A stretch of DNA of 20,000 nt, taken from an uncultured virus (IMG/VR IMGVR_UViG_3300025867_000015) (Duplodnaviria > Heunggongvirae > Uroviricota > Caudoviricetes). Both the position numbers and the translations under genes were made by a program. The notes below the pieces were generated by a model, which saw only the letters and a program-made list of their open reading frames with translations, was not told where the DNA came from and did no database searches. Shown here one piece after another: positions 1 to 15,631 of the stretch (within the stretch, counting starts at the first letter, position 1; each line of letters begins with the position of its first letter). The DNA lies in IMG/VR virus record IMGVR_UViG_3300025867_000015, positions 56,548 to 76,547 of that record; one strand, written 5' to 3'.

Positions 1-432
1 TTTAATAGTGTCTTCAGGTTCAGGGTTAACATACTTCATCAAATCAAATTTACAAAATTCAAACATATTCAACATAAATTCAGAGTCAAATTTGATAAAA
101 TTATGTCCTAATAATACTGGTAACTTAGTTCCCACTTTATATTTTTTAAATACATCAATAACTTTCATACAGACTTCTTTTAAATCTTCCCCTTGCTCTT
201 CTACCATTTCTTTAGTTATACCAGATGTAACAGCTGCTTCTTGTGAATATACTAAACCTTCTTTATAGGGTTTAATCAACCATGAATACTGATCAATTAT
301 TTCTAATTCTTTTGATACAACCACTAAAGCTATTTCAGTCAAAGCAATATCAAATACTGCTTTCTTAATCTTACTGGGGAGCCCCCCAGTTTCTACATCT
401 ATTACAATAAAATTTTGATATGGACTATCCAT
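1..432 (-). CDS. DEDD-family (DnaQ/RNase T-like) 3'-5' exonuclease, runs off the window end (3'-truncated)
   Basis: Not in the ORF track. Manual translation from ATG at 432 gives 144 open codons: MDSPYQNFIVIDVETGGLPSKIKK...TEIALVVV...LIKPY...SGIT...LLGHNFIKFDSEFM...EDTIK. It has the ExoI (IDVETGG) and ExoII (GHNxxxFD) motifs. The start overlaps the stop of the 67-aa ORF (ATGGATAG). Confidence 0.93.
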   Translation of the reverse strand, partial: MDSPYQNFIVIDVETGGLPSKIKKAVFDIALTEIALVVVSKELEIIDQYSWLIKPYKEGLVYSQEAAVTSGITKEMVEEQGEDLKEVCMKVIDVFKKYKVGTKLPVLLGHNFIKFDSEFMLNMFEFCKFDLMKYVNPEPEDTIK

Positions 433-2214: not shown

Positions 2215-2778
2215 TTACCACTGAAAATTAATATCAATAATATCCTCTTTAGAAAGTTCCACCTCATTATAATGATATGGATCACTAGAGTCTTGTTGAT
2301 ATATAGAATTTTGTTCTAACTTAATAGCATCTAAATTTAATTCTCTTTCAAACCAAATACCAAGCATACCACCTGAAGCTATACTGCCTATACTAATTTT
2401 ATTATCTTCTCCATCAGCTTCATAAAATGTTGCATACAATGGTTTACTCTCATTACTACTAATATGTTCCATAAATTCTATACCGTCTGTATCAGTAGCT
2501 AAATCGACAATAGCTACCCTAAATTTAGAAGAACAAGAACTTGGATATTTAAACCAAAAATATACATCTGAATGTGCTACAGAATCTTCATTAACTAAAA
2601 TTAGACCAATATATTTATTACTGTTGTTATTCTTAACAGTATACATTGATATGTCACTAAACAAATTTTCAAATCTATTACTCTCAACTAAATTAGCAGA
2701 TTTATATCCACCTAAACTTAGTTCAGGTTTAAATTGGACATCATTCTGAGCTGATGCTACAGTATAGTATAATTTCAT
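2215..2778 (-). CDS. putative virion/baseplate-associated structural protein
   Basis: 187 aa. SLGGYKS...NLFSDIS and GIWFER motifs recall conserved proteins at the distal end of myophage baseplate operons. Last gene of the tail module. Confidence 0.6.
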   Translation of the reverse strand: MKLYYTVASAQNDVQFKPELSLGGYKSANLVESNRFENLFSDISMYTVKNNNSNKYIGLILVNEDSVAHSDVYFWFKYPSSCSSKFRVAIVDLATDTDGIEFMEHISSNESKPLYATFYEADGEDNKISIGSIASGGMLGIWFERELNLDAIKLEQNSIYQQDSSDPYHYNEVELSKEDIIDINFQW

Positions 2779-2781
2779 TTC

Positions 2782-4446
2782 TTAGAAGTATATAATTACT
2801 GTTTTATAACAATTCCCAATGCCAGTTGTGGTCATAATCGTTACTAACCCATTAATATCTATAGTAACCTTACCAGTCATCTCTATACTATCATAAGATT
2901 GTAGAAAATCTACCACTTTATGAGAAAATGTAAATGGCACTACAAAAGTAATAGGTACCGCTACAGATATTGCAATGCGTTCTATATTAATTACTAATTT
3001 ATTTACATCATATTTATAATACACCTTATTAGTAGCAGTACTTATAAGAGCAGAATTAGTATCATACATCTTATCAACTTGAACCCAAGGAGAATCTACC
3101 CAACTTGAATTGATATTTACTAAATTCCAAACATTATCTTTATCTAAAACTAAATGTATAATACTACCACTCTTTATCACAACTCTTGGCCCTACTACAT
3201 AATTAAGAGCATAATCATTAGTCTTTATAGACCAAGCTACAGCTGGATCAGAATTTACTTTTACTCCAATTGTTAAATCGACACTACTATCATCTAATTT
3301 TAAAAACAAAGAAGTCCCTGGTAATACTGATTTAGTACAAGTAATACTAACTAATTCATATCCACCAGTAGCAGTTATATAAAACAATGATCCATTCCTA
3401 TCAGGAATAACTAGACTACTAGTATTATTCCCATTCGTTAATGTAATAGGAGTAACAGCTGATATAGAATCTAAATAATATTCTAAAAATGAAGCAAACG
3501 AGGGCACAGCTGTTGAAAAAGTCTTTTTACCTGTAATTGTCTGAACTAAACTCTTATATACTATATCAGGTGAATAAGCAAAATTGAACAAATAATCGCC
3601 TCTCAGATCCACTACAGTAAATGCCCCACCTGAACCAAACACTAATTTACAAATAATAAAACCACCTGCCCCTGTTATATCTGATGCTGTCTCCGTAAAC
3701 GTTAATTTCCCATTAGCAGTAACATATGAAAATTTATTTGTCAAACTGCCTTGAATATCTAAATCATAAGACCCAACAATCAACATTTTTACATTAGTTT
3801 CATTACTTACTATACCTGAAATAATAATATTATTATCATCTATAATTGATATTACTTCATATGTCTCACTATTAACAGCTGCTGCACCAAGTTCTGTATA
3901 AAATCGTATTTTAGTAGGATTCTTCAGAGATTGTCCTCTTAATTTCGTAAAATCTCCCCCAGTTATAGTAACCTGGTTAGAAGAAGAAATATTACACAAC
4001 CCAACCTCTAATGGATCCCAAATAGGGGAGAGACCCATATAAACTTCATCTCCACTACCATAAGTTTCTATACCATCAACTGTGATATTATCAGTCTCTT
4101 CCCATTTTAACAATGTCACTAATTGCTTAGAAAGAGAGTTATTATAATACTCCAACCCTGATACTTTCTTTGTTGTTGTATTTTCAACACACAGAACACC
4201 ACGTCCAACTCCAACCTTTAATGTATTATAACCCTCAACTTGAACAGATCCTAATGATACTTTAAAAAAATCATTTATTAATGAACTTGTATTAGTATCA
4301 TAAGCATCTAAAGACCCTCCCACTAAATCTGAATTACGATTATATCGTAATACATTACCAACTAACTCTCTCAAAGATTCATCCCAAAGTCTTAATTCTT
4401 CTTTAGAAATTATCTGTTTACTATTGAAATTAGGTGTCTGTTGCAT
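2782..4446 (-). CDS. baseplate-attached tail fibre / receptor-binding-type protein
   Basis: 554 aa, beta-rich, Gly/Thr/Ser-rich. Carries a fibre-shaft motif (QTITGKKTF) followed by a putative distal binding region. Located downstream of the wedge genes. Confidence 0.65.
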   Translation of the reverse strand: MQQTPNFNSKQIISKEELRLWDESLRELVGNVLRYNRNSDLVGGSLDAYDTNTSSLINDFFKVSLGSVQVEGYNTLKVGVGRGVLCVENTTTKKVSGLEYYNNSLSKQLVTLLKWEETDNITVDGIETYGSGDEVYMGLSPIWDPLEVGLCNISSSNQVTITGGDFTKLRGQSLKNPTKIRFYTELGAAAVNSETYEVISIIDDNNIIISGIVSNETNVKMLIVGSYDLDIQGSLTNKFSYVTANGKLTFTETASDITGAGGFIICKLVFGSGGAFTVVDLRGDYLFNFAYSPDIVYKSLVQTITGKKTFSTAVPSFASFLEYYLDSISAVTPITLTNGNNTSSLVIPDRNGSLFYITATGGYELVSITCTKSVLPGTSLFLKLDDSSVDLTIGVKVNSDPAVAWSIKTNDYALNYVVGPRVVIKSGSIIHLVLDKDNVWNLVNINSSWVDSPWVQVDKMYDTNSALISTATNKVYYKYDVNKLVINIERIAISVAVPITFVVPFTFSHKVVDFLQSYDSIEMTGKVTIDINGLVTIMTTTGIGNCYKTVIIYF

Positions 4447-4448
4447 TT

Positions 4449-6308
4449 TTATATGAATTGAATATTGGTATTACAATTATAAGGTATTAATTTATCATCA
4501 ATGAAATCTTTGATATACTCATCTGACATACCTGAATTATTCTTTAAAAAACAAATCATCTTATTTTTATTATCTATCATTCCTTTTGAAGTATTCAAAC
4601 TCAATGGCCTGACTACAATATCTTTTATATTAACAACTGCTCCTAAACCAGAACAATAAAAATTAATTACTGGCATCAAATATTTTACTTCATTCTGAGA
4701 ATCATTATACAAATTACTGCCAATATTTATATTTAACGTATCAGCAACATCTGGTAACTTTATCAATGAATATACTCCTCTTACCCATAAATCTCTACCA
4801 TTACACAATGAAAATAAAGTGTCTTCAATAAACATATTAGAAGCTGTATCATCACTATACTTCTTAGTCTTATCAACTTCATTGAAATCAACATCTAATG
4901 TCTTTATACCAAACTGTAAATTAATATTAGCATCTGTTTTAATCACAAAACTAATTTCATACCCGGAAATATCATCACTGTCTGTAGCAATAGGTATTGG
5001 ACAAAATGGGAATAAAGTATTTGGCTTATAAGAATCTAGAGTCATAACATCTACAGTATTTAACCCAAATACTCCAGGATTTTCAAAATCTAAAGAATAT
5101 TGAATATATCCATTACTAATTATAGGCTTAATATTATTAGTCCATAATAATGGATATCTACTTAATCTATTTACAACTCCCTTTTCATACGATTTGTTTA
5201 AATTAACGCAACTTGCTTCCTGAGAAATAGGGGAGCTAACATCAATAGTTAACCCTAATTCTGATGATTTTATCAACTCGGTTAAACATTCACCATCAAT
5301 ATGATTAATCAATCTTCTTATCTCTCCATCAACTCTTACATAATCAATATTATCAAATCCAACATTTCTTACCCAATTACTATCCCAGACACCATCAACA
5401 GTTACTCCCATTACTCCGGGGTATAAAGGTGCTTTATTACTATCTAATATAAATCCTCCTCCTTCATTACATTTCCATTGATATACATCATCAATAGTAT
5501 AATCACTATTATATTTAGTAACTCTAAGGTTAGCTAAAACAGGTAATGAACCATTAAACAAGTGTATAAACGTATATGCATTAACTGTGGAAACTACTAT
5601 ACTACTTATTAGTTCACCATTAATATACAGATAAATATTAGTGCCTACTCTTATAAACTTCACATTATTAACAATAGTAACATCTAATGATGCATTATAT
5701 GTTAAAACATTAGTATAACAATTATATGAAATACTATACACTCCTATATTATTTTCGTCTGGGTCACTTACTTTCTTTATATGAATAAAACAACTACTTA
5801 ATGTTCTATAAAATAAATCGCCATCAACAGTTAATAAAGTATCACCATTTTTTAATAAAATATCAAACTCTATACAATGAAAAAAACCTAAATAAACAGA
5901 AGTGTCTAATGAACAAGCCCCACCAATAACACCAATCCCACTATTATTATCTATATCTGATTCTATATCTTCTGTTAATTCATACATATTTGATCCAACT
6001 TCATCTGATTTACCAATATAATTATCAATTTGTTTAGTGCCTCGTTTACTTATTTCTTCTCTCCAGTATTTATACAAATAATCTAACAAATAACTATCTG
6101 AATCATTACTAAAAGCAATTTCTCTTGATTTTAAAAATCTTCTAACCATTTCATCATAATTATCAATATCTCTAAATACATATCTATAAATATTAAGCAT
6201 GCCAACTAAATAACAAATAGAATACCAATATGAATAAAAATCCATATCGCCATCACCCGAGTCTACAAAAACTCCACCAACTTTAGTATAGTCATTTATT
6301 TCAGGCAT
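4449..6308 (-). CDS. baseplate wedge protein (P2 gpI / T4 gp7-like) with inserted LamG/concanavalin-like domain
   Basis: 619 aa. Helical N-terminus ends in KRGTKQI, resembling the gpI K/R-G-T motif. Internal IEFDI...VKFIRVGTNIYLYINGEL...WKCNEGGG..DS is LamG-like. Position is downstream of baseplate J. Confidence 0.65.
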   Translation of the reverse strand: MPEINDYTKVGGVFVDSGDGDMDFYSYWYSICYLVGMLNIYRYVFRDIDNYDEMVRRFLKSREIAFSNDSDSYLLDYLYKYWREEISKRGTKQIDNYIGKSDEVGSNMYELTEDIESDIDNNSGIGVIGGACSLDTSVYLGFFHCIEFDILLKNGDTLLTVDGDLFYRTLSSCFIHIKKVSDPDENNIGVYSISYNCYTNVLTYNASLDVTIVNNVKFIRVGTNIYLYINGELISSIVVSTVNAYTFIHLFNGSLPVLANLRVTKYNSDYTIDDVYQWKCNEGGGFILDSNKAPLYPGVMGVTVDGVWDSNWVRNVGFDNIDYVRVDGEIRRLINHIDGECLTELIKSSELGLTIDVSSPISQEASCVNLNKSYEKGVVNRLSRYPLLWTNNIKPIISNGYIQYSLDFENPGVFGLNTVDVMTLDSYKPNTLFPFCPIPIATDSDDISGYEISFVIKTDANINLQFGIKTLDVDFNEVDKTKKYSDDTASNMFIEDTLFSLCNGRDLWVRGVYSLIKLPDVADTLNINIGSNLYNDSQNEVKYLMPVINFYCSGLGAVVNIKDIVVRPLSLNTSKGMIDNKNKMICFLKNNSGMSDEYIKDFIDDKLIPYNCNTNIQFI

Positions 6309-6320
6309 GACAAATTTTAA

Positions 6321-7061
6321 TTATATGATAATTGCATTACTTTCATCATTATTATAACTACATCTAGCTAAAGTAGTTAAGGCTGCCCATGCTGCATTAT
6401 CTGTAACTTCCGGTATTAATGTCCCATCTCTTAATTTTGTTTCACAAATATTATCAGCTAAAATTTCAAGACCGCCAATACAAATTGTGCGATACACTTT
6501 ATCATCATTTCCTATATATATCCCTGACTCCCCATTCTCTAAAGTTGTCGAATCCTTTATTACTCTTATGGATCTCCCACTTTTTTCTTCTCCCAAATAA
6601 GCCATAACAAAATAACTATGTAAATAACTAAAAATAATTTCAGAAGGAGTTTCATAAACTAAATCTGATGTCATAATATTGCTAATATTTTTTAAATCAG
6701 AAAATGTACCATCAGAGTTTCTTTTACCACCGCCTCTTGCATTAAATCCATATAAATTATCAGCACCAGTATTAGGTGAATTCCAAAAATCATTAATAAT
6801 ATCTTTCATATGTCCACCTCCTATTTCATATCCACCCACACTATCTTCAATAGTTATATATTCATCTCTAGATGCCACATGCCACCCTATAGCAGCTAAT
6901 TCATTACCATTTAATACAGTATATGGATTATATAAATATCCAAATTTTACAGATGTAATAATAGGACTAGGATCACTTCCACCTGTGAAATAATTCAATT
7001 TCCACCAATTCTTAATGACATCCTTGGATGTCACTTTTATATTTGCTATATATGTCGACAT
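6321..7061 (-). CDS. Fib_succ_major (FISUMP) domain protein, circularly permuted
   Basis: 246 aa. Motifs FGYLYN, GWHVAS..EY, WNSPNTGADN..GFNARGGGKRNSDGTF and GRSIRVIKD are followed by GNDDKVYRTICIG...LADN and IPEVTDNAAWAALTTLARCSYNND. Confidence 0.9.
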   Translation of the reverse strand: MSTYIANIKVTSKDVIKNWWKLNYFTGGSDPSPIITSVKFGYLYNPYTVLNGNELAAIGWHVASRDEYITIEDSVGGYEIGGGHMKDIINDFWNSPNTGADNLYGFNARGGGKRNSDGTFSDLKNISNIMTSDLVYETPSEIIFSYLHSYFVMAYLGEEKSGRSIRVIKDSTTLENGESGIYIGNDDKVYRTICIGGLEILADNICETKLRDGTLIPEVTDNAAWAALTTLARCSYNNDESNAIII

Positions 7062-7064
7062 ATC

Positions 7065-9107
7065 TTATATATTGTTTTCATCTCCATTAGGATAGCACCA
7101 TGCTCCTGTAGATAAATGGCCCCAAATAGAATTGCTATCTACAAAAGATATAGAATCACCATTACGGTAATGTTTCACTTTTAAATTAGTAGTTGCCCAC
7201 CTTTGCTCACCTATAACTATAATATCATACACATTACCATCATAATCCGTTATCTGACTAGGAGGCGGATTACTTTGTGAGAATAATGACATATCTATCA
7301 AAAATCTAACAGACATACCTACCTTATTATATTCATACGATCTTACTAATGATACTAATGAATCTGATAACTTTCTATACCAAGATCTATCATAAGAATA
7401 CTGTGTATCGGTCCACCACAATCCTTCTGATTGGAATTGATGATATACCCCATCAGATGATCTATACCCTGCTGGTCTAGCGCTAAATCCACTACTATTA
7501 GTTCCTGGATTAGTAGGCCAGTCATATGTGGTCTTTAATTTAGGACCAGCAGCAGTTATACCACCTAAATATGTTGACAATTCTGTCCAATCATCATCAG
7601 TAGCCACCCTTGTCATTAATGGAGCTATATTTCTAGAATCTTGAATAGCATAATTATTATATATTAACCCATATCCACCATCTGTAATAGGGGTGGGTTC
7701 ATTTACAACATCTACTTCCCAATCTAATGTCCCACCTTCTGAGATAACACAAGTATCAGGAGTAATACTCACTAAAACATAATTTTCCATAGGACTTTCT
7801 GTTATCACATAGGTATCTTCTGGTAAATCATTAAAGACTATAGGGTGCTCATCCATTGTACCTGACTTAGTCACTATCAATGGAGTTGGGCCACTACCAG
7901 TAACAGTATATTCAAATACATCATGTTGTGAAACAGGTACTTCCCCAACAGATTTATTTATAACTATAGACCCAAGAGTTGGAACTGATTCTTTTTTGAT
8001 ATTAGTAACGACAACACTTACAGATAAAGTATCTTCATCTAAAGTAAAACTACTTGGAACTATACTATCTAAATCATACCATTCTTCTGTATCTTCTGTA
8101 ACAACATAATTACCAAGTGACATATTTGTTAATAATAATGGAGTACCTTGTACTATACTATAAGATACACCATTTACTTTCACTCTAAATATATGTTTGT
8201 CTGTAAGAGCATTACTTACAACCTTATTAATTTGTATAGTCCCTGTAACAACAACTTCTTCTTCATAAACAGCTATAACATCGTGATCTTGATCCATCGT
8301 CACCAATATTCCAACTTCTCCTTCAGTTTGGTCTACACTGTCTAATCTCCATAATTTAAAAACTGTACCTGTATTTGATACTGATGGTGCTGTTATTAAT
8401 ACACTCTCACCATCTATATATGTTCTAGTAAAACTAGTTATACCATGTGATTGACCATTTTTATCAATCTTATTAACTGATATAGAAACACCACTATTAG
8501 GAGCTAATGAACTCACATTTACATCAAAATATACAGTAACCGGAGGGGTCGAAGGTCCAGATACATATAAAATATTATATTCTGTATCTATATCTTCACT
8601 TAAAATATCAGTACCTAACAAAACATTATCTATATAAAGGCTAACATCATAATGATCTCTGATTATCTTTATTTTATATAACTTATATAACTCAAAAGTA
8701 GTTAAAAACTCTAATCCATGAAATGTTATTGTCCCATCTGGTCTAATAAGTAACTTACTATCAAACATATCTATATCACCAAAAATAGGCTCATTAAATG
8801 AAATCTCAAATTCTATAGTATAAACTCTACCTAAATTATCATATCTGCTATCTCCTTCAACAGTCAATAACTTGCCACAATAGGCATATCCAAATGTGAA
8901 CTTATCATCTTTGATACCTATTGGTGCAGCAGCTGATCCATCTACTACATTAAACTTCTCTCTTACTATTTTGTCTCTCTTAATATAACCAGCTAATTCC
9001 CCAAATTGTCTAATCTTTTCAAACAAATTATTAGCAATTTCAGCGATCTTTGGGTCGTTGTAATTAAATAGACCGGAAAATTCAGTATCGTTATACTTTT
9101 TTATCAT
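7065..9107 (-). CDS. mosaic tail/baseplate adhesin: wedge-like N-terminus, LamG-like domain, B-repeat-like domain, 2x CnaB/SpaA Ig-like domains, circularly permuted Fib_succ_major domain
   Basis: 680 aa, ATGA overlap with baseplate J. Motifs: IKIIRDHYDVSLYIDN (LamG-like); GESVLITAP...FKLW...VTMDQDHDVIAVY (InlB-B-repeat-like); two GxIxINK...YVxTE...VxN repeats; YGLIYN...GFSARPAGYR...GLWWT...GMSVRF then TDYDGNVY...IGEQRWATTNL. Confidence 0.85.
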   Translation of the reverse strand: MIKKYNDTEFSGLFNYNDPKIAEIANNLFEKIRQFGELAGYIKRDKIVREKFNVVDGSAAAPIGIKDDKFTFGYAYCGKLLTVEGDSRYDNLGRVYTIEFEISFNEPIFGDIDMFDSKLLIRPDGTITFHGLEFLTTFELYKLYKIKIIRDHYDVSLYIDNVLLGTDILSEDIDTEYNILYVSGPSTPPVTVYFDVNVSSLAPNSGVSISVNKIDKNGQSHGITSFTRTYIDGESVLITAPSVSNTGTVFKLWRLDSVDQTEGEVGILVTMDQDHDVIAVYEEEVVVTGTIQINKVVSNALTDKHIFRVKVNGVSYSIVQGTPLLLTNMSLGNYVVTEDTEEWYDLDSIVPSSFTLDEDTLSVSVVVTNIKKESVPTLGSIVINKSVGEVPVSQHDVFEYTVTGSGPTPLIVTKSGTMDEHPIVFNDLPEDTYVITESPMENYVLVSITPDTCVISEGGTLDWEVDVVNEPTPITDGGYGLIYNNYAIQDSRNIAPLMTRVATDDDWTELSTYLGGITAAGPKLKTTYDWPTNPGTNSSGFSARPAGYRSSDGVYHQFQSEGLWWTDTQYSYDRSWYRKLSDSLVSLVRSYEYNKVGMSVRFLIDMSLFSQSNPPPSQITDYDGNVYDIIVIGEQRWATTNLKVKHYRNGDSISFVDSNSIWGHLSTGAWCYPNGDENNI
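7701..8246 (-). repeat. tandem duplication (protein level) of two ~82-92 aa CnaB/SpaA-like Ig domains inside the 680-aa gene
   Basis: TGTIQINK..F...NMSLGNYVVTE...YDLDSIVP...VVVTN (8246-8001) versus LGSIVINK..F...DLPEDTYVITE...YVLVSITP...VDVVN (7976-7701). Confidence 0.8.
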
Positions 9108-10279
9108 ATACTATAATAAATTGGTAATATTGAATTATTATTATCATACAATATATTACCATACATATCTCTCATTATGAATTTAATAATTCTAGGGAGT
9201 TTATACTTATAAATATAAGTATCATTATTAGGCAAGAAAAATTCATCTGGTACATATTTAACACCTCTTACATTCTTAACTATTTGTAATAAATCATCCC
9301 ATTCTATTACACTCTTAGTAAAATATCTAAAATCAAAATACTTAGTCATTTGTATTTGAATACTCCTTCTTATATCTACATCTGAATACCCTGACATTAT
9401 ATCAACTCTAAAATCTATACCATTAGAACCGCCAACTTCATGCCATTCTATATTCTGTAATTTTATACCTAAAACACCAGCTTGGTCATCTACATCATTT
9501 ATATTCATAAACGATGACAATTTTTCTTCAAATGAAGAAAGTTCATCATCTGAGTACCATTTACCGTTACAAGTAACTATTGAAATCAATATCTTACCAT
9601 CTTCAGTATACCCACTCTTTCTTATACTCAAAATATCACTATCTATAGAATTCAAATTCACTAACAAATTAGAAAAAGAACCTTTAGCAGCAAACTCTCT
9701 GAACATTGATATTCTAGTTTTAAAATCTTCATCACTCTCAATATCTCTGCCCCCACTTGCTTCATATTCATTAGTACAATATAAATGACCAAGAGGTGGA
9801 TTCTGGATCTGATTTATACTGAAAGCACTAACATTAGTATTTCTACCAACTGATGTACTTCTAACTGGTATATATGCATATCCATTATCACCAACAATAG
9901 TAACATCTGTTATACTAAAAGTTACACCCTGATTACTTACAAATAATGACTCACCAGGAACATAAGTAGTAGCTGGATCAGCATAAACAAGTACATAAGT
10001 AGAAGATACATTGGCAGATAATCTATCTCCACATCCTACTAATTTAGCTGCATTATCTAAATAACTCCCTGAACTTAATTCAGGAAATATTTGTGATTCA
10101 ATAATAGCAGTATCTTTTATATCTTTTTGAAATATCTTAGCTATACCAAAAGCATGGGCATTCAAAACTGACAAATCAGATATCTTAGACACCTTAGTCG
10201 TATGATTAAGAAATGTCTCAACATACAATGCTTTTAAATCAGCAATAGTCAATACTTCTGTTAATAATTTATCTAACAT
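9104..10279 (-). CDS. baseplate J-like (T4 gp6-like) wedge protein
   Basis: 391 aa. GSYLDNAA..VG..R, VRSTSVGRNTNV and ASGGRDIESDEDFKTRI are characteristic Baseplate_J motifs. Confidence 0.93.
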   Translation of the reverse strand: MLDKLLTEVLTIADLKALYVETFLNHTTKVSKISDLSVLNAHAFGIAKIFQKDIKDTAIIESQIFPELSSGSYLDNAAKLVGCGDRLSANVSSTYVLVYADPATTYVPGESLFVSNQGVTFSITDVTIVGDNGYAYIPVRSTSVGRNTNVSAFSINQIQNPPLGHLYCTNEYEASGGRDIESDEDFKTRISMFREFAAKGSFSNLLVNLNSIDSDILSIRKSGYTEDGKILISIVTCNGKWYSDDELSSFEEKLSSFMNINDVDDQAGVLGIKLQNIEWHEVGGSNGIDFRVDIMSGYSDVDIRRSIQIQMTKYFDFRYFTKSVIEWDDLLQIVKNVRGVKYVPDEFFLPNNDTYIYKYKLPRIIKFIMRDMYGNILYDNNNSILPIYYSI

Positions 10280-11181
10280 TACAATGTTTTATTTATTTCT
10301 TGATGTAAACGAGATTCAATCTTAAAATCATAAAAAACAACATCTTCTACAACTCTACTATCAACCATTTGAACATTCTTAAAAGAATCATCTGTTTTAA
10401 AATTATTTATCACCTCTCTATTTAAAGAAGAAAACATTATATTATTCAACGAAGATCCAACAAAATGTTTTGAAATCCCTAAAATAGGGAATTCTGGGAC
10501 ACTACCCCTAACCACTCTTAAACAAATATCTGCCGATTGTTCCATAGTATCTTCAACCCCAAGAGTTAATACATCATCATCAATAAATTGTATAAAATCT
10601 ATCATATCTTTACCTAAAATATTATTCCCAACCATAACATCTACAACTGTAGTAATATTCATAACTTTATTATCTATTCTATTTATATTTAATAAATTTC
10701 CACCATCATGATCATAATCTACTTCAAGTAAATTATTACTAACTGTCAATTCCACCCAATCAAAATTAGGGTCACTACTCCCTAATTGTAATGATAAATT
10801 CTCAATAGTCTGTCTCTGTTTTAAAATATATTCAAATTTAGAATTATTCTCATATCCATACACATAAGAACTTCTCAACCATTTGCATAAATTTAAACAA
10901 GTCTCTAATTTAACCTTCATATCAGACAAATTATCTACTAAATCCCAAAACTCAGTATTATTACTTAAATTAGTATTAACATGGGAAATCATTTTCTCTA
11001 TAATTAAACTTTCATTATATAATCTGTTTAGTTCACTAAATGAATATTTATCTACATTAGAATTGCCACTATAATATGCAGAAATCTGCGGTAAATAGTC
11101 AGTAATAAAAGTTTCAAAATCTGAAAAATAAACTTTCAGATCATAATTAGTAACAGACCAAAACTTATCTAAAATATTCAT
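10279..11181 (-). CDS. baseplate wedge protein: helical N-terminus + LysM-like (gp53/gpX) + gp25/gpW-like sheath initiator
   Basis: 300 aa. YILKQRQTIENLS...WVELTVSNNL...GNLLNI is LysM-like. LGKDM...DDVLTL...RGSVPEFPILGI is gp25-like. Directly precedes baseplate J. Confidence 0.75.
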   Translation of the reverse strand: MNILDKFWSVTNYDLKVYFSDFETFITDYLPQISAYYSGNSNVDKYSFSELNRLYNESLIIEKMISHVNTNLSNNTEFWDLVDNLSDMKVKLETCLNLCKWLRSSYVYGYENNSKFEYILKQRQTIENLSLQLGSSDPNFDWVELTVSNNLLEVDYDHDGGNLLNINRIDNKVMNITTVVDVMVGNNILGKDMIDFIQFIDDDVLTLGVEDTMEQSADICLRVVRGSVPEFPILGISKHFVGSSLNNIMFSSLNREVINNFKTDDSFKNVQMVDSRVVEDVVFYDFKIESRLHQEINKTL

Positions 11182-11987
11182 CTCTTTAAAATATCCATTT
11201 GATTATAACTCATCGTCATAGATTGAAGAGTTGATATATTACCCAATATTTTATCAGCCGTAAAAGAATATTGCATATGTTTATCAGACTGATTTATACA
11301 CTCCACATCTTCAAGATCAGCAATTACTATCAAATTCAAAGTATATTGCCATATCATATTAGAAGTTTGTTCAGACTGTGAAAATGATAATGGATTTTTA
11401 GCCGGAACAACCAAATAATTCTCCCCTAAAGCAGGATTATAGAAATATAATTTATAAGTCTTACCTGTATCTCCATGTGACTTCGCCTTATGAATGATGG
11501 ACTTCAGTATATTTATACAACTAAAGCCAGTCTTTATACCATATGGCAATTTAAGTTTTTTAAATAGATTACTATCATTATTCACATCTTCTGATTTATA
11601 ATACCCATTCTCAATAGAAGGACTAATTCTAATCCCTCTAAACAACTGTGCATAATCTTCTTCTATACCCTTAGTTGGTTGTATTATCTTAAATGATCTA
11701 CCAAAATCTCCCTGTATCGTTAATTCATCTGGAATATACCCCTTTTTGTTAAAAACAGTTATCCCATTGAATGAATGTTGAATAGTTGTAGCCTCACTCT
11801 CATTTTTAGTAATACTTTTAGGCATTACAGGAAATGCAAAATAATCAACAGGAAACAAATTATCATCAACCAACTCTAAAGCGCACATATATACCTCAAA
11901 ATCTCTTGGATATAAAGATGACATTTTTTCTCTTCCCAACTTATTAAGTTGTTCAGAAGCCATTTCTATAAAATTGTCTAAAATCAC
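11178..11987 (-). CDS. putative tail tube initiator / baseplate hub protein
   Basis: 269 aa, GTG start (a downstream ATG is possible). FAFPVMPKSITKNE...T.IQHS..G...LTIQGDFG...LYFYN...WQYTLNL fits tube-fold initiator proteins. Lies between the spike and wedge genes. Confidence 0.65.
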   Translation of the reverse strand: MILDNFIEMASEQLNKLGREKMSSLYPRDFEVYMCALELVDDNLFPVDYFAFPVMPKSITKNESEATTIQHSFNGITVFNKKGYIPDELTIQGDFGRSFKIIQPTKGIEEDYAQLFRGIRISPSIENGYYKSEDVNNDSNLFKKLKLPYGIKTGFSCINILKSIIHKAKSHGDTGKTYKLYFYNPALGENYLVVPAKNPLSFSQSEQTSNMIWQYTLNLIVIADLEDVECINQSDKHMQYSFTADKILGNISTLQSMTMSYNQMDILKR

Positions 11988-12011: not shown

Positions 12012-12860
12012 CTATTCTAAAAATGATTTTTCGCTTTTAATTTTATCAAAATTACCTAATGTCTTACCAAGTAATGCTAATTTAATAGCGACCTTCAAAG
12101 AGGCACCTCCATCACCAGGTATAGGAGACCAAGTATTTATTGTATCTAAAATAGTCTGAACAACTTCATTACTCTTATCTAAATTAGTCTTCAATTCATC
12201 ACCTCTAACCATAGATTCATTAGCTTCATGAACAGATAATTTATCTGATTTAATACTAATTTCTCTATCTGAATCTATAACTATATTCTTATCAGATTTT
12301 ATATTTAGACTACCATCTATAGAGGTAATATTAATATTACCTACACTGTTTAAATTAATATTCCCTTTAACATTCACATTCATTGATGATGTGTAATCAT
12401 CACTTCTAACATCTAAATCAAAACTGCTATTTTTACCTATTATATCTATATTTATCTTACCATTACCATCAACTGATAATATAGACATCCCTGTACCATT
12501 ACCTCTCTTAAATACAAGTATATTTTCATTATTAATCTCAGTTTCATCATGTTTAGAAATTACTCCAGTAATAATACATAAACTAGCATCTGGTTCTACA
12601 AAAAATGTTACTGCACTACCTAACTTCTCTCCCTTTAGAGGGAACTTTATATCTTGAATAGCGGATTTAGTAGCCCGACAATTATGGATTACCCCGCCAA
12701 ATGATTCAACTAAAATAGAAAATCTCTCTAATCTCAAACATCTATTCACATAACTATCACGATCTATATCTTCAGGTATAATTATATACCCAAAGTTTAT
12801 AGATCTCCTAAAACTTTGATCAAAATCCTTATAAACACCAGCACCACTCTCTATTCCCAT
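12012..12860 (-). CDS. baseplate central spike (gpV/gp5/gp138-like)
   Basis: 282 aa. N-terminal OB-fold-like part (FP..GEKLGSAV...CIITGVI), then repeated short beta strands (INVNVKGNINLNSVGNINITS-type), then VRGDELK...PGDGGASLK tip motif. Follows the hub gene. Confidence 0.75.
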   Translation of the reverse strand: MGIESGAGVYKDFDQSFRRSINFGYIIIPEDIDRDSYVNRCLRLERFSILVESFGGVIHNCRATKSAIQDIKFPLKGEKLGSAVTFFVEPDASLCIITGVISKHDETEINNENILVFKRGNGTGMSILSVDGNGKINIDIIGKNSSFDLDVRSDDYTSSMNVNVKGNINLNSVGNINITSIDGSLNIKSDKNIVIDSDREISIKSDKLSVHEANESMVRGDELKTNLDKSNEVVQTILDTINTWSPIPGDGGASLKVAIKLALLGKTLGNFDKIKSEKSFLE

Positions 12861-15631
12861 TGTTTTCTTTTTAAGAAAAAATCTAACATGTTCGGATTTA
12901 TTAATTTGGAATTATCACTTATTGTTGATGTCCCTATTTTACCATTATCTAATTTAATCCGTAATCTATCAACTATAACATCTATATTTACGATATTAAA
13001 ATAATTTATGAATTTATCATCTATTTTCTTACCTGATTCATCAATAACATATTTTTTCTTCATACCTCTGTCTACATTTATAACTGTTGATCTATTAATA
13101 GTATCACCATTTATTGAAACTGAATTAGATACAGAATTAACATAAAAAATTTCTTCTGTAGGTGCAAAATAAATCCACATCCCCCTTTTTATCCTTCTAT
13201 CCCCACCAGGGATAGTAATAGTACCTTTACGAGTAAATGGTAATATCATATTCGATTCCACTAAAAACTTCATATCATTAGCCAAAAAATCTCTAAACAA
13301 ATCATAATTTACCTTTGACTGATCTCCAACTAACACACTTGTAGCTATATAGGCATCTGGTACAACTTTCTTATGTATACCAAAAATATTAGCAAACTCT
13401 TCAAAATATACTATAGGAAGAAATGCTGCTGTAGTATATTGATTACTGCCTAAAGTACCTATATCTGATGGAATAACTTGATACCAAGTAAAATATGAAC
13501 TTTCCCAATCTAATGAAACATCATTAAACATATCAGCATCGACACTAATAATTTCATTATTCTTAAAATAATCTTGTATCTGAGATTTAGTATATGGAGG
13601 TTGTCTAGCCATGAACACAAATTGATCACCAATAGTATCACCCCAAAATTCAACAAATGGGAATTGACATACTTTATTAATCAACTCTAAAATAGGCCCA
13701 TCTGGATTAGATAACTCTCCATTAGCTAATCTTCTACTATCTAATTGATGATCAATAACCATCTTTATTATTTTCCAAACTCCATTTTGCTCAACACTAT
13801 CTAAATATTCTTTATTTGAGTTGCTTATTACATATGTCTTACTTTGTCTGTCTTCAATTTTCTTTGTTATTCTATTAAATGAACTCTTATAAGAATTAAA
13901 TAAATCACTATTTTTAGGCAATACACCTGTATTAGTCAACTGATTAAAAATAAACCCCAATGAATCTCTTATACTTCTATGAAGAACAGTAAATGTAGAC
14001 ATAAACTGACCTGTAGTAAATATTCTCTTAAAAAATGTATCATCCTTATTATAATTAAGAAAAAAGTCCTTAGCACCATTAACTAATGCAAATGGCATAA
14101 AATAACTACCATCTTCTGATAACAATTTACTAAAATCTCTACCACTAACACTTATTGTAGATATTGCAGAAACTGAATTATATGATTCATGACAAGTATC
14201 AACTAACCCTATCATATCATAAATCTTATTAGGCAACTCATTCTTATCAATAAACATATCCCATTTATTCATATCATATATACTTCTCTTTTTCTCTATG
14301 TCAAGTTTCTCAAATCTAATGAAAACTATATCATTCTGTTGTATATATTTATGAAAATATGATAAATTATACTTATCATTAACTGTCTTATCTATATAAG
14401 AATACAAAGTATCACTAAACTTTTCTACATTATAAATATTATCTATTTCACCTAATGAAAATGAAAAATCTCCACTCTCTGATACTTTAGTATCCATTGA
14501 TATAATAAATGGAGAAATATCTAATATCTTATCTATTGATCTAATATATATCCAACAGCTGAAAGAAACATGTAAATATCTTATAGAATAAGATGAATTT
14601 ATAATCTTCACTTCATGAGCAGGAACATATGTAGGGTCATTTATAAGTGCTTTTAATTCATCTGATAAAAAAGTAGTTAAATTTTGTTGCACTAAAAATA
14701 TGTCTTTCCCAGTAACAGATAATACTTCTAAATTTGTTCTATTTTTAGGCACTATTATCATAGTCCCCACATTTATATCATAGTCTAACTTATCATCAAA
14801 CTTAGGTTTTACTAATTTTCTTTGTTCTATATATTCATCTTTTTCTGAATAAGTGGTAGCGGCTAATATCTTATCTGTTAAACTTTTATATTCTGTAGAA
14901 AATTCATTTTTCTGATCAATATTATACTTATCCCATAATCTATATAAATTACTCATATTAGTAGTACCTTGATATTCTAAAATCTCTTTCTTAGACATTT
15001 TAGGGGTGCCTATAATAGAATTAGGATCTTGAATTAATTTACTAATAGTACTCAACCCAGAATCTTGAACATAATATTCATAATAATCTTTAACAGGAGG
15101 CAAAACAGCTCTTTCAACTGATTTAACTTGTTTAGTAACATTTTTCTTAACTACATCGCTAGGCTCTTTAGAGTAATCTTTTATTTGAAATTTACCACTC
15201 TCAATAGCTATGTGATTAAAAGTCTTATAAAAGAAAAACTCTCTAACTCCTAATGCATATAATTTAACAAACAAATCACTACCACCTCTTATATCTTTCT
15301 TATACTCATCATGTAATATTATATCATCACTAAAAAACTTAAAATCTATTGCTTCTCCATACAAATGTCTTGATGTTTCTGAGCTATTAGGAAGTGTAGA
15401 ATTAAATTCTTTTGTTCTTCTGCTAGAAGTTATAATAACAGACTGTATATTATAGTATACACAAATTTCTACTATAGCTTTCATTATTCTTTCATCAACA
15501 AACATATCTCTTTTACCAAATCCACCTCCACTTATTCCTCTAAAATCATCATAAGTAATACCAACATACTCCGATTTATAATCGAAGTATCTATCATCTC
15601 CTTTAACTAATTTAACTAATTTAATAGACAC
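12851..15631 (-). CDS. baseplate hub / tail-associated lysin (gp27/Tal-like) with N-terminal M15 Zn-peptidase domain
   Basis: 926 aa, GTG start overlapping the TMP stop (TAGTG). SSRRTKEFN...SRHLYGEAIDF...FNHIAIE is the M15 HxxxxxxD...H Zn site. MIGLVD...ISVSGRDFSKLL, PFVEFWGD...ARQPPY and GTITIPGGDRRIKRG...FYVNSVSNS are hub motifs. Confidence 0.85.
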   Translation of the reverse strand: MSIKLVKLVKGDDRYFDYKSEYVGITYDDFRGISGGGFGKRDMFVDERIMKAIVEICVYYNIQSVIITSSRRTKEFNSTLPNSSETSRHLYGEAIDFKFFSDDIILHDEYKKDIRGGSDLFVKLYALGVREFFFYKTFNHIAIESGKFQIKDYSKEPSDVVKKNVTKQVKSVERAVLPPVKDYYEYYVQDSGLSTISKLIQDPNSIIGTPKMSKKEILEYQGTTNMSNLYRLWDKYNIDQKNEFSTEYKSLTDKILAATTYSEKDEYIEQRKLVKPKFDDKLDYDINVGTMIIVPKNRTNLEVLSVTGKDIFLVQQNLTTFLSDELKALINDPTYVPAHEVKIINSSYSIRYLHVSFSCWIYIRSIDKILDISPFIISMDTKVSESGDFSFSLGEIDNIYNVEKFSDTLYSYIDKTVNDKYNLSYFHKYIQQNDIVFIRFEKLDIEKKRSIYDMNKWDMFIDKNELPNKIYDMIGLVDTCHESYNSVSAISTISVSGRDFSKLLSEDGSYFMPFALVNGAKDFFLNYNKDDTFFKRIFTTGQFMSTFTVLHRSIRDSLGFIFNQLTNTGVLPKNSDLFNSYKSSFNRITKKIEDRQSKTYVISNSNKEYLDSVEQNGVWKIIKMVIDHQLDSRRLANGELSNPDGPILELINKVCQFPFVEFWGDTIGDQFVFMARQPPYTKSQIQDYFKNNEIISVDADMFNDVSLDWESSYFTWYQVIPSDIGTLGSNQYTTAAFLPIVYFEEFANIFGIHKKVVPDAYIATSVLVGDQSKVNYDLFRDFLANDMKFLVESNMILPFTRKGTITIPGGDRRIKRGMWIYFAPTEEIFYVNSVSNSVSINGDTINRSTVINVDRGMKKKYVIDESGKKIDDKFINYFNIVNIDVIVDRLRIKLDNGKIGTSTISDNSKLINPNMLDFFLKRKQWE

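What the first reader, a model, noticed from the sequence alone, without database searches (positions are those of the whole stretch)
6321..7679. Two adjacent tail genes carry the same circular permutation of the Fib_succ_major (FISUMP) domain
Established: the canonical order is (A) D.DGNxYxTVxIGxQxWMAENL...W..L.T.AWCYYNND, then (B) YGxLYNWYA...GWHVP...GF.ALPGGYR...WWSST...GxSVRCxKD at the C-terminus. Seen: both proteins here run B then A. In the 680-aa protein, YGLIYNNYA (from ~7679)...GMSVRFLID (~7293) is followed by a linker and TDYDGNVYDIIVIGEQRWATTNL...GAWCYPNGDENNI-stop (7250-7065). In the 246-aa protein, FGYLYNPY (~6945)...GRSIRVIKD (~6553) is followed by a linker and GNDDKVYRTICIG...LARCSYNNDESNA-stop (6513-6321). 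The breakpoint is the same in both although the copies are strongly diverged, which points to an old, functional permuted subfamily rather than an assembly artefact. The Cys residues of the usual CPxGW and SVRC motifs are both absent in both copies (IAPLMT/SVRF and LAAIGW/SIRV), consistent with co-loss of a disulfide. Inference: permutation moves the termini and so re-orients the C-type-lectin-like binding face on a virion stalk, making this a candidate new class of phage receptor-binding or adhesion tip.
Basis: partly seen in the sequence, partly recalled or inferred. Interest (0 to 1): 0.85.

Follow-up and report, generated by a model that had tools for sequence, protein, structure and literature searches.

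The report
Phage-type circularly permuted FISUMP lectin domain
Two neighbouring tail genes of an uncultured phage end in a known lectin-like surface-binding domain whose two halves are in swapped order, a rearranged form that turns out to be common in phages and rare in bacteria and probably serves as the host-recognition tip.

Summary
Both proteins (680 aa, 7065-9107 minus strand; 246 aa, 6321-7061 minus strand) carry the Fib_succ_major/FISUMP unit as B then A. Pfam, and profiles built only from canonical-order proteins, read the domain as A then B.

It is not an artefact. Hundreds of relatives end the same way, and two fold predictors model B+A as one compact unit. The two halves given as separate chains dock strand to strand (score 0.86; best control 0.01).

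B is the C-type-lectin-like core. A is a clamp sub-domain, and the new chain ends lie in the hairpin that joins A to B in canonical proteins.

The cysteine pattern is rewired across the subfamily, not merely lost.

The permuted form made up 27 of 80 FISUMP reading frames in an order-neutral sample of viral contigs. It was almost absent from bacterial genomes, where 2 of its 3 cases sat beside phage tail genes.

Gene position just after baseplate J, tail neighbours in other phages and a hypervariable patch in B point to receptor binding. That function is inferred. The proposed re-orientation of the binding face was not tested.

This scan noted permuted FISUMP units before, in another phage. No paper found describes them. 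Verdict: a new variant of a known kind, of moderate interest.

The parts
7065..9107 (-). Gene for the 680-aa tail protein (W680). It overlaps the stop of the baseplate J gene by 4 nt. It has an N-terminal domain, a beta-sandwich stalk and a C-terminal permuted FISUMP unit.
   Evidence: ORF; Pfam hits; few orthologues (P0138 and P0272 at 66-68% identity, P0185 at 54%).
8463..9107 (-). W680 residues 1-215: N-terminal domain of no named family, probably the baseplate attachment part.
   Evidence: No Pfam or PHROG hit. Atlas structure neighbours are lectin-like or ConA-like sandwiches at TM 0.40-0.51, which is a lead only. Conserved at 53-55% identity in P0185 and P0160.
7698..8462 (-). W680 residues 216-470: stalk of beta-sandwich repeats (weak InlB B-repeat-like and prealbumin/SpaA-like matches).
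   Evidence: Sub-threshold Pfam hits: PF18998 at residues 216-283 (E 0.002), PF24514 and PF17802 at residues 394-459. Orthologue P0138 carries precomputed PF17802 and PF24547.
7293..7673 (-). W680 residues 479-605: segment B, the C-type-lectin-like core, running from the YGLIYNNYA motif to the SVRFLID motif.
   Evidence: PF09603 model positions 38-185; own and canonical-only profiles.
7068..7259 (-). W680 residues 617-680: segment A at the C-terminus, ending a few residues after its only cysteine.
   Evidence: PF09603 model positions 2-46 on the tail piece; canonical-only A profile E 8e-23.
6321..7061 (-). Gene for the 246-aa protein (W246): a 38-residue leader followed by a single permuted FISUMP unit.
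   Evidence: ORF; AF2 model with pLDDT 85.2 and pTM 0.81; Atlas model with pTM 0.81.
6948..7061 (-). W246 residues 1-38: variable leader with one predicted helix (residues 12-22) and no signal peptide. Presumed docking piece.
   Evidence: pLDDT under 50 for residues 1-27, helix at 12-22. Highest 10-residue hydropathy 0.67, against 2.2 or more in 14 of 92 relatives. Column conservation 0.11-0.24.
6552..6947 (-). W246 residues 39-170: segment B, the C-type-lectin-like core.
   Evidence: PF09603 model positions 49-187. VIA-align matches to C-type-lectin-like domains cover model residues about 32-175.
6579..6707 (-). W246 residues 119-161: hypervariable patch inside B, the presumed specificity-determining surface.
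   Evidence: Mean majority-residue share 0.27, against 0.68 for the B core and 0.83 for A, in 70 aligned relatives. Only residues 119, 120, 123, 129 and 160 of this stretch touch A.
6324..6530 (-). W246 residues 178-246: segment A, a clamp sub-domain with the subfamily's own cysteine pair (C194, C234).
   Evidence: Canonical-only A profile E 6e-15; pLDDT 93-97; strand pairing with B; cysteine counts.
9104..10279 (-). Baseplate J-like wedge gene directly upstream. It is context that places both genes in the tail module.
   Evidence: PF04865 E 1.8e-13; phrog_6 baseplate wedge subunit E 1e-24.

Best explanation
Both genes encode distal tail (baseplate-fibre) proteins of a contractile-tailed phage that is probably Bacteroidota-infecting. 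Each ends in a true circular permutation of the FISUMP unit.

Anatomy. The unit consists of a C-type-lectin-like core (B) and a small beta-rich clamp (A) that pairs strands with both the first and the last strand of B. In canonical proteins the chain runs A then B, through a tight hairpin. Here that hairpin is cut to give the new N- and C-termini, and the old termini are joined by a conserved linker of about 8-12 residues.

Origin (inferred). The form most likely arose by off-register excision from A-B-A-B tandem arrays, which are abundant in bacterial surface proteins. It then spread among phages as a portable module.

Function (inferred). The unit is the host-surface-binding part, probably binding glycan. 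Specificity lies in the hypervariable patch of B (residues 119-161 of the 246-aa protein), which faces away from the A clamp. The 680-aa protein presents its unit on a beta-sandwich stalk fixed to the baseplate. The 246-aa protein is a separately encoded unit of the kind that orthologous fibre proteins carry internally. It therefore probably joins the same appendage through its short N-terminal leader.
For: Shown:
- Inverted order against Pfam and against canonical-only profiles.
- Collinear B-linker-A alignment of the two copies.
- Subfamily size: 583 relatives at E<=0.001, and 116 of the 120 listed run B..A.
- In viral contigs found with the permuted alignment, 92 of 96 FISUMP ORFs in 78 loci are BA, BABA, BBA or BABABA. 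These include the window's own two.

One structural unit:
- AF2 gives pLDDT 85.2 and pTM 0.81, with A at pLDDT 93-97. The ESM Atlas model of the same protein has pTM 0.81.
- B (residues 30-175) and A (176-246) given as two chains: the model supports binding, score 0.86, best of 3 controls 0.01. That mark was reached by 116 of 157 solved complexes and 2 of 215 mismatched pairs. The runs agree in at least 95% of contacts and the partner's pLDDT is at least 88. My own alignment was used, so these counts hold only roughly. B 41-45 pairs with A 232-236, and B 164-169 with A 199-205.

Permutation seen in structure comparison: the Atlas model aligns over residues 2-245 (TM 0.85) to a 100% viral cluster. 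It aligns only up to residues 170-172 (TM 0.53-0.57) to all 9 bacterial FISUMP clusters listed.

Fold: B matches C-type-lectin-like domains, including fibre and adhesin tips. Matches are InvE 5n40 (Z 5.2, rmsd 2.6, 84 residues aligned), Bd2740 8oks (Z 5.2, rmsd 2.7, 81 aligned), and Mtd and TvpA (Z 3.9).

Cysteine rewiring.

Virus enrichment:
- 27 of 80 closed-3' FISUMP ORFs in an order-neutral viral sample end in A.
- Only 3 of 85 complete ORFs in genome contigs run B..A, although the query was permuted. Two of those 3 lie beside tail genes.
- 129 of 144 PF09603 matches in 151 genomes of one bacterial phylum are collinear; 5 start at model position 30 or later.

Tail context:
- The genes follow sheath, tube-initiator, hub and baseplate J genes in one co-directional block.
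- Among upstream neighbours of B-A ORFs in 66 other viral loci, 14 are tail or virion-structural, 1 is a peptidase, 13 match unknown-function families only, and 38 have no match.
- Orthologues P0185 and P0160 of the 680-aa protein carry one or two internal W246-type units.
Against: No experiment or proteomics places either protein in the virion, and no ligand is known.

The PDB matches are weak (Z at most 5.2, where chance best hits are often Z 7-8). Foldseek found nothing in the PDB. The lectin-like assignment therefore rests on the consistency of the list and on the Pfam family.

The docking test used two halves of one chain with my own alignment, and shows the model's confidence only.

The tail of the 246-aa protein gets no Pfam or TIGRFAM hit on its own. 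The protein's TIGR02145 score (35.9 bits) is under the curated cut-off of 41.65.

14 of 92 single-unit relatives have signal-peptide-like N-termini, so not every member is a virion part.

No other viral locus shares the neighbouring genes of this window.

The viral and cellular censuses used different methods. Viral contigs may include cellular fragments, and near-duplicate loci inflate the counts.
Confidence: 0.62

Rival explanations
1. The halves do not pair within one chain. B of one subunit pairs with A of another, either in a domain-swapped homotrimer or between the 680-aa and the 246-aa protein. On this reading the permuted order is an oligomerisation or docking device rather than a monomeric re-threading.
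For: Fibre tips with this fold can be trimers (Bd2740, PMC10769870, passages read). The two genes are adjacent, and relatives fuse both unit types in one chain. The docking test shows that A binds B when unlinked, so pairing in trans is physically conceivable.
Against: Monomer predictions by two methods close the unit within one chain with high confidence. The linker is conserved (majority share 0.75) and long enough. Single-unit proteins with signal peptides exist without a partner gene.
Confidence: 0.1
2. The 246-aa protein is not a virion component. It would be a soluble or secreted lectin made during infection, for example to mask a receptor (superinfection exclusion) or to act on the host surface.
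For: 14 of 92 single-unit relatives have signal-peptide or lipobox-like N-termini, including one on a 38-kb viral contig. The protein is small, and its leader is poorly conserved and modelled at low confidence.
Against: The window's protein has no hydrophobic leader. It lies 3 nt after a fibre gene inside the tail block. Orthologous fibre proteins carry the same unit type internally.
Confidence: 0.15
3. The units are targets of a diversity-generating retroelement, like other FISUMP/DUF1566-type C-type-lectin proteins, and the hypervariable patch is its variable repeat.
For: Fib_succ_major/DUF1566 proteins form a class of such targets, also in phages (PMC5758913, PMC8143477, PMC11661182; passages read). 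The variable patch lies where variable repeats lie in this fold (established knowledge for Mtd and TvpA; recalled, not tested here).
Against: No reverse transcriptase (PF00078) was found in the 76.5-kb record, though the record is estimated only 70% complete. There is no template-like repeat of the two genes in that record. No adenine-biased repeat pairs were found in 201 viral loci with FISUMP ORFs, within flanks of 3-6 kb.
Confidence: 0.03
4. The B-A order is a remnant of a decayed tandem array or an assembly error and has no function as a unit.
For: Tandem A-B arrays contain B-A junctions, and long array proteins dominate the family's best hits.
Against: Both ORFs are intact and end 9-12 residues after the conserved cysteine of A, as do most of the 116 B..A relatives among the 120 proteins classified. 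A near-identical copy (96% identity) exists on another contig. A is the most conserved part, and the subfamily has its own cysteine pair.
Confidence: 0.02

Closest known systems
Canonical Fib_succ_major / FISUMP domain (Pfam PF09603, NCBIfam TIGR02145) of Fibrobacterota and Bacteroidota surface proteins
   Same: The same two sequence segments with the same conserved motifs. Scores are above the Pfam cut-off in both proteins. The C-type-lectin-like core is the same.
   Different: The order is B then A instead of A then B. The CPxGW/SVRC cysteines are absent and replaced by a pair inside A. There is no lipoprotein signal. The permuted form is found mainly on viral contigs.
C-type-lectin-fold receptor-binding proteins diversified by retroelements: Mtd of Bordetella phage BPP-1, TvpA, Legionella LdtA, Bacteroides uniformis 'Bacuni' phage targets
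   Same: A lectin-like fold at the end of a phage tail or surface protein, with variability concentrated in one patch. Matches: Mtd 1yu0 (Z 3.9, rmsd 3.3, 107 residues aligned) and TvpA 2y3c (Z 3.9, rmsd 3.6, 114 aligned). Fib_succ_major is named as a target class (PMC5758913, PMC8143477, passages read).
   Different: No reverse transcriptase or template repeat here. The variable patch is internal, about 85-125 residues from the C-terminus, because A follows it.
Trimeric fibre tips with a C-type lectin fold: Bdellovibrio Bd2740 (PDB 8oks) and Legionella Lcl C-terminal domain (PDB 8q4e)
   Same: Among the best structural matches of segment B: Bd2740 Z 5.2, rmsd 2.7, 81 residues aligned; Lcl Z 4.5, rmsd 2.3, 80 aligned. 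Both are adhesive tips at the end of fibres (PMC10769870, passages read; PMC11162425, abstract in a search listing only).
   Different: Those tips are the bare lectin-like core without the A clamp. No sequence similarity was detectable. The oligomeric state here is unknown.
Permuted or rearranged FISUMP modules noted earlier in this scan in other phages (e1-6021534; crAss-like muzzle proteins e1-3415683 and e1-5931237)
   Same: A rearranged FISUMP unit in phage tail proteins, said there to belong to mostly viral subfamilies that no paper describes.
   Different: Other genomes and other host proteins. One of those notes speaks of three segments rotated in two ways. I did not examine those sequences.

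Membership tests
Fib_succ_major / FISUMP (PF09603, TIGR02145) | Score above the curated family cut-off | tested here: met
   PF09603: 96.3 bits (680-aa protein) and 56.9 bits (246-aa protein), cut-off 33.9. TIGR02145: 66.4 bits (680-aa protein) is over the cut-off of 41.65, but 35.9 bits (246-aa protein) is under it.
Fib_succ_major / FISUMP (PF09603, TIGR02145) | Collinear match over the whole model (segment A, then segment B, ending at the SVRCxKD motif) | tested here: not met
   B precedes A in both proteins. For comparison, 129 of 144 matches in 151 bacterial genomes span the model collinearly.
Fib_succ_major / FISUMP (PF09603, TIGR02145) | Conserved cysteines taken to form extracellular disulfides (CPxGW and SVRC positions) | tested here: not met
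   Both are absent in both proteins. Both are present together in 173 of 261 canonical units and 0 of 133 permuted units.
Fib_succ_major / FISUMP (PF09603, TIGR02145) | Lipoprotein signal sequence (frequent in the family, as paraphrased in PMC5758913) | tested here: not met
   No hydrophobic leader in the 246-aa protein. The 680-aa protein starts with a non-hydrophobic N-terminal domain. The test was a simple hydropathy scan, not a signal-peptide predictor.
C-type-lectin-like fold (CTLD superfamily) | The core fold of two helices and paired terminal strands superposes on solved CTLDs | tested here: inconclusive
   Most of the 50 listed VIA-align rows are C-type lectins, Link modules, intimin/invasin tips, FGE-like or retroelement-target proteins, and nearly all align within model residues about 32-175. 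But Z is at most 5.2, and Foldseek found no PDB match at E<=0.001.
Diversity-generating retroelement target proteins (CLec2 / category d) | A nearby reverse transcriptase and a template repeat matching a variable repeat with adenine-specific differences | tested here: not met
   No PF00078 match in the 76.5-kb record, which is 70% complete. No repeat of the two genes elsewhere in it.
Phage tail fibre / receptor-binding proteins | Gene lies in the tail or baseplate module, distal to the baseplate wedge genes | tested here: met
   The gene order on the minus strand is sheath, tube-initiator, hub-like 926-aa protein, baseplate proteins, baseplate J, then the two genes.
Phage tail fibre / receptor-binding proteins | Presence in the virion and binding to a host surface receptor | not testable with these tools
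   This needs virion proteomics and binding or adsorption assays. The host is unknown.

The most novel reading that the evidence does not exclude
The B-A FISUMP unit is a phage-specific plug-in host-recognition cassette. It was captured from bacterial tandem arrays by an off-register cut. A conserved A clamp and adjacent chain ends let phages move it freely: to fibre ends (the 680-aa protein), into the middle of fibres (P0185, P0160), nested inside another unit (B-B-A-A in P0237), or as a separately encoded clip-on adhesin (the 246-aa protein). Host range would be set by a 40-residue hypervariable patch that diversifies without any retroelement.
Probability: 0.3. Interest if true: 0.65.

Novelty: new variant of a known kind. 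Interest (0 to 1): 0.5.

Why it matters
FISUMP-type lectin-like domains are among the commonest surface modules of Bacteroidota and Fibrobacterota, and they appear on many uncultured phages. Yet they have no solved structure and no known ligand.

A subfamily that is re-threaded, nearly confined to viral contigs and marked by its own cysteine pair has practical uses:
- It gives a simple sequence marker for phage-borne copies.
- It offers a natural experiment on how a lectin-like fold tolerates new termini.
- It provides a compact (about 210 residues), confidently modelled candidate for host-recognition studies and for predicting the host range of uncultured phages.

Only two of 50,697 deposited phage genomes hold a relative, so the module is essentially unstudied at the bench.

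Tried and rejected
- PDB by sequence: no match for the 680-aa protein's C-terminal domain or for the 70-sequence profile at E<=1.
- Foldseek against the PDB: nothing at E<=0.001.
- A second structure prediction (full 680-aa protein with alignment A2) was not accepted by the tool, twice. The stalk and N-domain are therefore described from weak family hits and Atlas neighbours only.
- I could not make a canonical A-B model or run a permutation-aware structural alignment.
- A viral scan with a single canonical protein (P0255) returned no locus. I used an order-neutral motif instead.
- Retroelement search: no reverse transcriptase in the record, no template-like repeat, and no adenine-biased repeat pairs in 201 viral loci (best ratio 8 of 11 mismatches, in short repeats between paralogous units).
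- Synteny: none of 17 window proteins or protein parts (16 whole proteins and the FISUMP-free N-terminal part of the 680-aa protein) has a relative (phmmer E<1e-4) in the other 77 viral loci.
- Promoter-like sites are at chance level (68 found, 73.7 expected), and no terminator-like site lies next to the two genes on their strand.
- No tRNA was found. One short tandem repeat lies outside the genes.
- Cluster look-up gave no source names for any of five proteins.
- The free tree needed 4 changes of order state, which could suggest several origins. The constrained single-clade tree was 75 log-likelihood units better than the short free search (AU p 0.94), so multiple origins are not supported.
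- A FastTree of B segments alone gave 11 changes with weak support. I gave it little weight.
Full report
**Setting**

The window is the tail module of an uncultured contractile-tailed phage, with all genes on the minus strand.
- The gene order is tail sheath (18545-19900), tube-initiator-like protein (11178-11987), baseplate proteins, and a Baseplate J-like wedge protein (9104-10279). Then follow the 680-aa protein (7065-9107), the 246-aa protein (6321-7061), and two large proteins of no known family (4449-6308 and 2782-4446).
- G+C content is about 29%.
- The sheath's nearest deposited relatives are a human-faecal phage, a Chryseobacterium phage and Bacteroides phages, at 31-37% identity. A Bacteroidota host is therefore likely but not shown.
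- The window lies in a 76.5-kb viral record estimated 70% complete. The same genes occur on a 94-kb IMG/VR contig.

- In the 680-aa protein, Pfam PF09603 matches residues 467-602 to model positions 38-185 of 187. The last 78 residues, scanned alone, match model positions 2-46 (E 7.6e-5). TIGR02145 matches positions 7-31.
- In the 246-aa protein, Pfam matches residues 39-169 to model positions 49-187. The tail alone gets no curated hit.
- To avoid circularity I built A and B profiles only from proteins in canonical order (273 A and 484 B segments). These find B at 40-170 and A at 185-242 (E 6e-15) in the 246-aa protein. In the 680-aa protein they find B at 479-604 and A at 619-679 (E 8e-23).
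- The two copies align end to end through B, linker and A (28% identity, E 1e-17).

**It is a family, not an accident**

- A word-indexed search with the 246-aa protein gave 583 relatives at E<=0.001. By my segment profiles, 116 of the 120 listed run B..A and 4 run B..B. Nearly all end a few residues after the conserved C-x-Y-N-N-D motif.
- An exhaustive profile-free search with the 680-aa protein's C-terminal domain found 35,910 representative proteins at E<=0.001. The best 150 are mostly long tandem arrays. 136 run A..B (112 end in B within 15 residues of the C-terminus), 10 run B..A, 2 A..A and 2 B..B.
- Both registers exist as single units with their own termini, so this is a true permutation and not a matter of where a repeat is taken to begin.

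**One structural unit**

- AF2 with a 70-sequence alignment gives mean pLDDT 85.2 and pTM 0.81, with A at pLDDT 93-97. Only the first 27 residues are poorly modelled.
- The ESM Atlas holds an independent model of the same protein with pTM 0.81.
- When B (residues 30-175) and A (176-246) were given as separate chains, the model supports binding.
  - The score is 0.86, against 0.01 for the best of 3 controls.
  - That mark was reached by 116 of 157 solved complexes and 2 of 215 mismatched pairs. My own alignment was used, so these counts hold only roughly.
  - The runs agree in at least 95% of contacts, and the partner's pLDDT is at least 88.
- The contacts are informative. The first strand of B (41-45) pairs antiparallel with the last strand of A (232-236). 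The last strand of B (164-169) pairs with A 199-205.
- In canonical proteins the envelope of A ends a median of 2 residues before B begins. There, those first two strands form a hairpin. In the permuted proteins that hairpin is where the chain begins and ends, and a conserved linker joins the old termini (median envelope gap 8 residues).

**Fold**

- VIA-align against 48,161 PDB representatives matched only model residues about 32-175, which is B. The list is nearly all C-type-lectin-like: InvE, invasin and intimin tips, Bd2740, Lcl, Link modules, Mtd, TvpA, FGE-like enzymes and animal C-type lectins. All matches are at modest Z of 5.2 or less.
- Foldseek found nothing in the PDB.
- B is therefore the lectin-like core, and A is an accessory clamp outside it.
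- Atlas structure neighbours show the permutation directly. A 100% viral cluster aligns over residues 2-245 (TM 0.85). All nine bacterial FISUMP clusters listed align only up to residues 170-172 (TM 0.53-0.57), as expected if A sits on the other side of the chain in them.
- In BFVD, two viral proteins align over the whole model (TMq 0.77) and a third over 128 columns only.

**Cysteines**

The table counts cysteines at the four profile positions A17, A57, B18 (CPxGW) and B129 (SVRC).

| Position | 261 canonical units | 133 permuted units |
|---|---|---|
| A17 | 0 | 104 |
| A57 | 181 | 132 |
| B18 | 173 | 24 |
| B129 | 249 | 5 |
| B18 and B129 together | 173 | 0 |

- A17 never occurs without A57 (104 of 104), as expected of a pair.
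- The 246-aa protein has the main permuted pattern (C194, C234). The 680-aa protein has only the A57 cysteine, a pattern seen in 22 units.

**One origin or several**

- A tree of 92 units (42 permuted, 50 canonical; cysteine columns removed) puts the 246-aa protein in a well-supported clade of 29 permuted units. It puts the 680-aa protein in a separate clade of 4.
- That tree needs 4 changes of order state, against a mean of 30.6 for shuffled labels.
- The best tree with all permuted units held together was 75 log-likelihood units better than the short free search, and it is not rejected (AU p 0.94).
- A single old origin is compatible with the data but not proven.

**Where it lives**

- With the permuted alignment as query, 405 stretches of IMG/VR contigs encode relatives. 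In the best 78 loci, 92 of 96 FISUMP ORFs run B..A: BA 73, BABA 15, BBA 3, BABABA 1. 14 loci hold two or more such ORFs side by side, as here.
- With the same query in 185,579 species-representative genomes, the best 80 loci held 101 FISUMP ORFs, of which 16 open-ended ones were dropped. Of the 85 complete ORFs, 77 run A..B, 3 B..A, 4 B..B and 1 A..A.
- Two of the three B..A cases lie beside a minor tail protein or a tape-measure protein.
- PF09603 searched in 151 genomes of the phylum of a 'Bacteroidetes bacterium' MAG gave 144 matches in 53 genomes. 129 are collinear over the model, 10 are N-terminal partial matches, and 5 start at position 30 or later.
44 ORFs open at the 3' end were dropped. 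Of the remaining 80, 53 end in B and 27 end in A.
- The permuted form is thus a large minority in viral contigs and rare in cells, while canonical units are also common in phages. The methods differ between the two censuses.
- Only two of 50,697 deposited phage genomes hold a relative. One is a Rhodobacteraceae phage with a 209-aa B-A protein just after a 'virion structural protein'. The other is a Microcystis phage matching B only.

**Function (inferred)**

- The genes sit just distal to baseplate J.
- Upstream neighbours of B-A ORFs in 66 other viral loci split as follows: 14 tail or virion-structural by PHROGs, 1 peptidase, 13 unknown-function families only, and 38 without a match. Some of these loci are near-duplicates.
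- P0185 (914 aa) and P0160 (1291 aa) are orthologues of the 680-aa protein. They share 53-55% identity over residues 1-300 and 43-47% over the C-terminal part. They carry one and two extra internal units that group with the 246-aa protein's clade. This links the two window genes functionally.
- Within 70 aligned relatives, A is the most conserved part (0.83), the B core is next (0.68), and residues 119-161 are hypervariable (0.27). That patch is largely outside the A interface. This is the pattern expected of a scaffold with one specificity surface.
- No retroelement accounts for the variability.
- C-type-lectin tips on fibres are known adhesins (Bd2740 and Mtd; PMC10769870, passages read).

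**Literature**

- Searches for FISUMP, Fib_succ_major, TIGR02145 and PF09603 found 11 papers. Searches for the domain's long names found 5. Of the papers opened, the word 'permut' was looked for in two (PMC5758913 and PMC11661182) and found in neither; PMC8143477 was searched for other terms.
- A search for 'circular permutation', 'C-type lectin' and 'tail fiber' together found one paper. It uses the terms in unrelated places.
- A search pairing 'circularly permuted' with 'DUF1566' was badly framed and shows nothing.
- I found no description of the B-A form in print. Supplements were not examined.
- This scan had already noted permuted FISUMP units in another phage (e1-6021534).

**Verdict**

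The permuted subfamily and the cysteine change are real and widespread. The receptor-binding role is likely but inferred, and the re-orientation idea is untested. This is a new, virus-enriched variant of a known domain rather than a new kind of system.

Noticed in passing
P0185 (914 aa) and P0160 (1291 aa), relatives of window 7065-9107: These orthologues of the 680-aa protein carry one or two extra internal B-A units between the N-terminal domain and the stalk. The extra units are of the 246-aa protein's type, so the two window genes correspond to one fused gene elsewhere.
   Followed up: partly
P0237 (419 aa); viral loci L015, L024, L064 (BBA); L160 (BAAB): Nested or irregular orders occur, such as B-B-A-A. 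They look as if one unit is inserted into the B-to-A linker of another.
   Followed up: no
Relatives of window 6321-7061, e.g. P0013 on the 38-kb viral contig of L002: 14 of 92 single-unit B-A proteins begin with signal-peptide-like or lipobox-like leaders. Some are on viral contigs, which suggests phage-encoded secreted or lipid-anchored copies. The window's protein has no such leader.
   Followed up: partly
window 4449-6308 (-) and 2782-4446 (-): Two large proteins (619 and 554 aa) directly downstream of the FISUMP genes match no Pfam or PHROG family, apart from a sub-threshold BppL_N hit. None of the other 77 viral loci holds a relative. They are probably further fibre or baseplate parts.
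   Followed up: partly
window 12851-15631 (-): A 926-aa protein with weak N-terminal matches to Peptidase_M15 and an endolysin family (residues about 44-147). It is probably the tail hub or tape-measure-associated cell-wall hydrolase.
   Followed up: no
window 1-432 (-): The start of a DNA polymerase exonuclease-like gene (RNase_T family) marks the end of the structural block.
   Followed up: no
L080 (contig of a MAG titled Nanoarchaeota archaeon), 2260-3714: A 484-aa B-A protein with an N-terminal membrane-anchor-like leader lies on a 42-kb contig with a ribonucleotide reductase gene nearby. It is the only B-A case in genome contigs without phage tail neighbours.
   Followed up: partly
window 12241-12303: A short imperfect tandem repeat (24-nt period, 2.6 copies, 73% matches) lies inside the 282-aa gene.
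   Followed up: no
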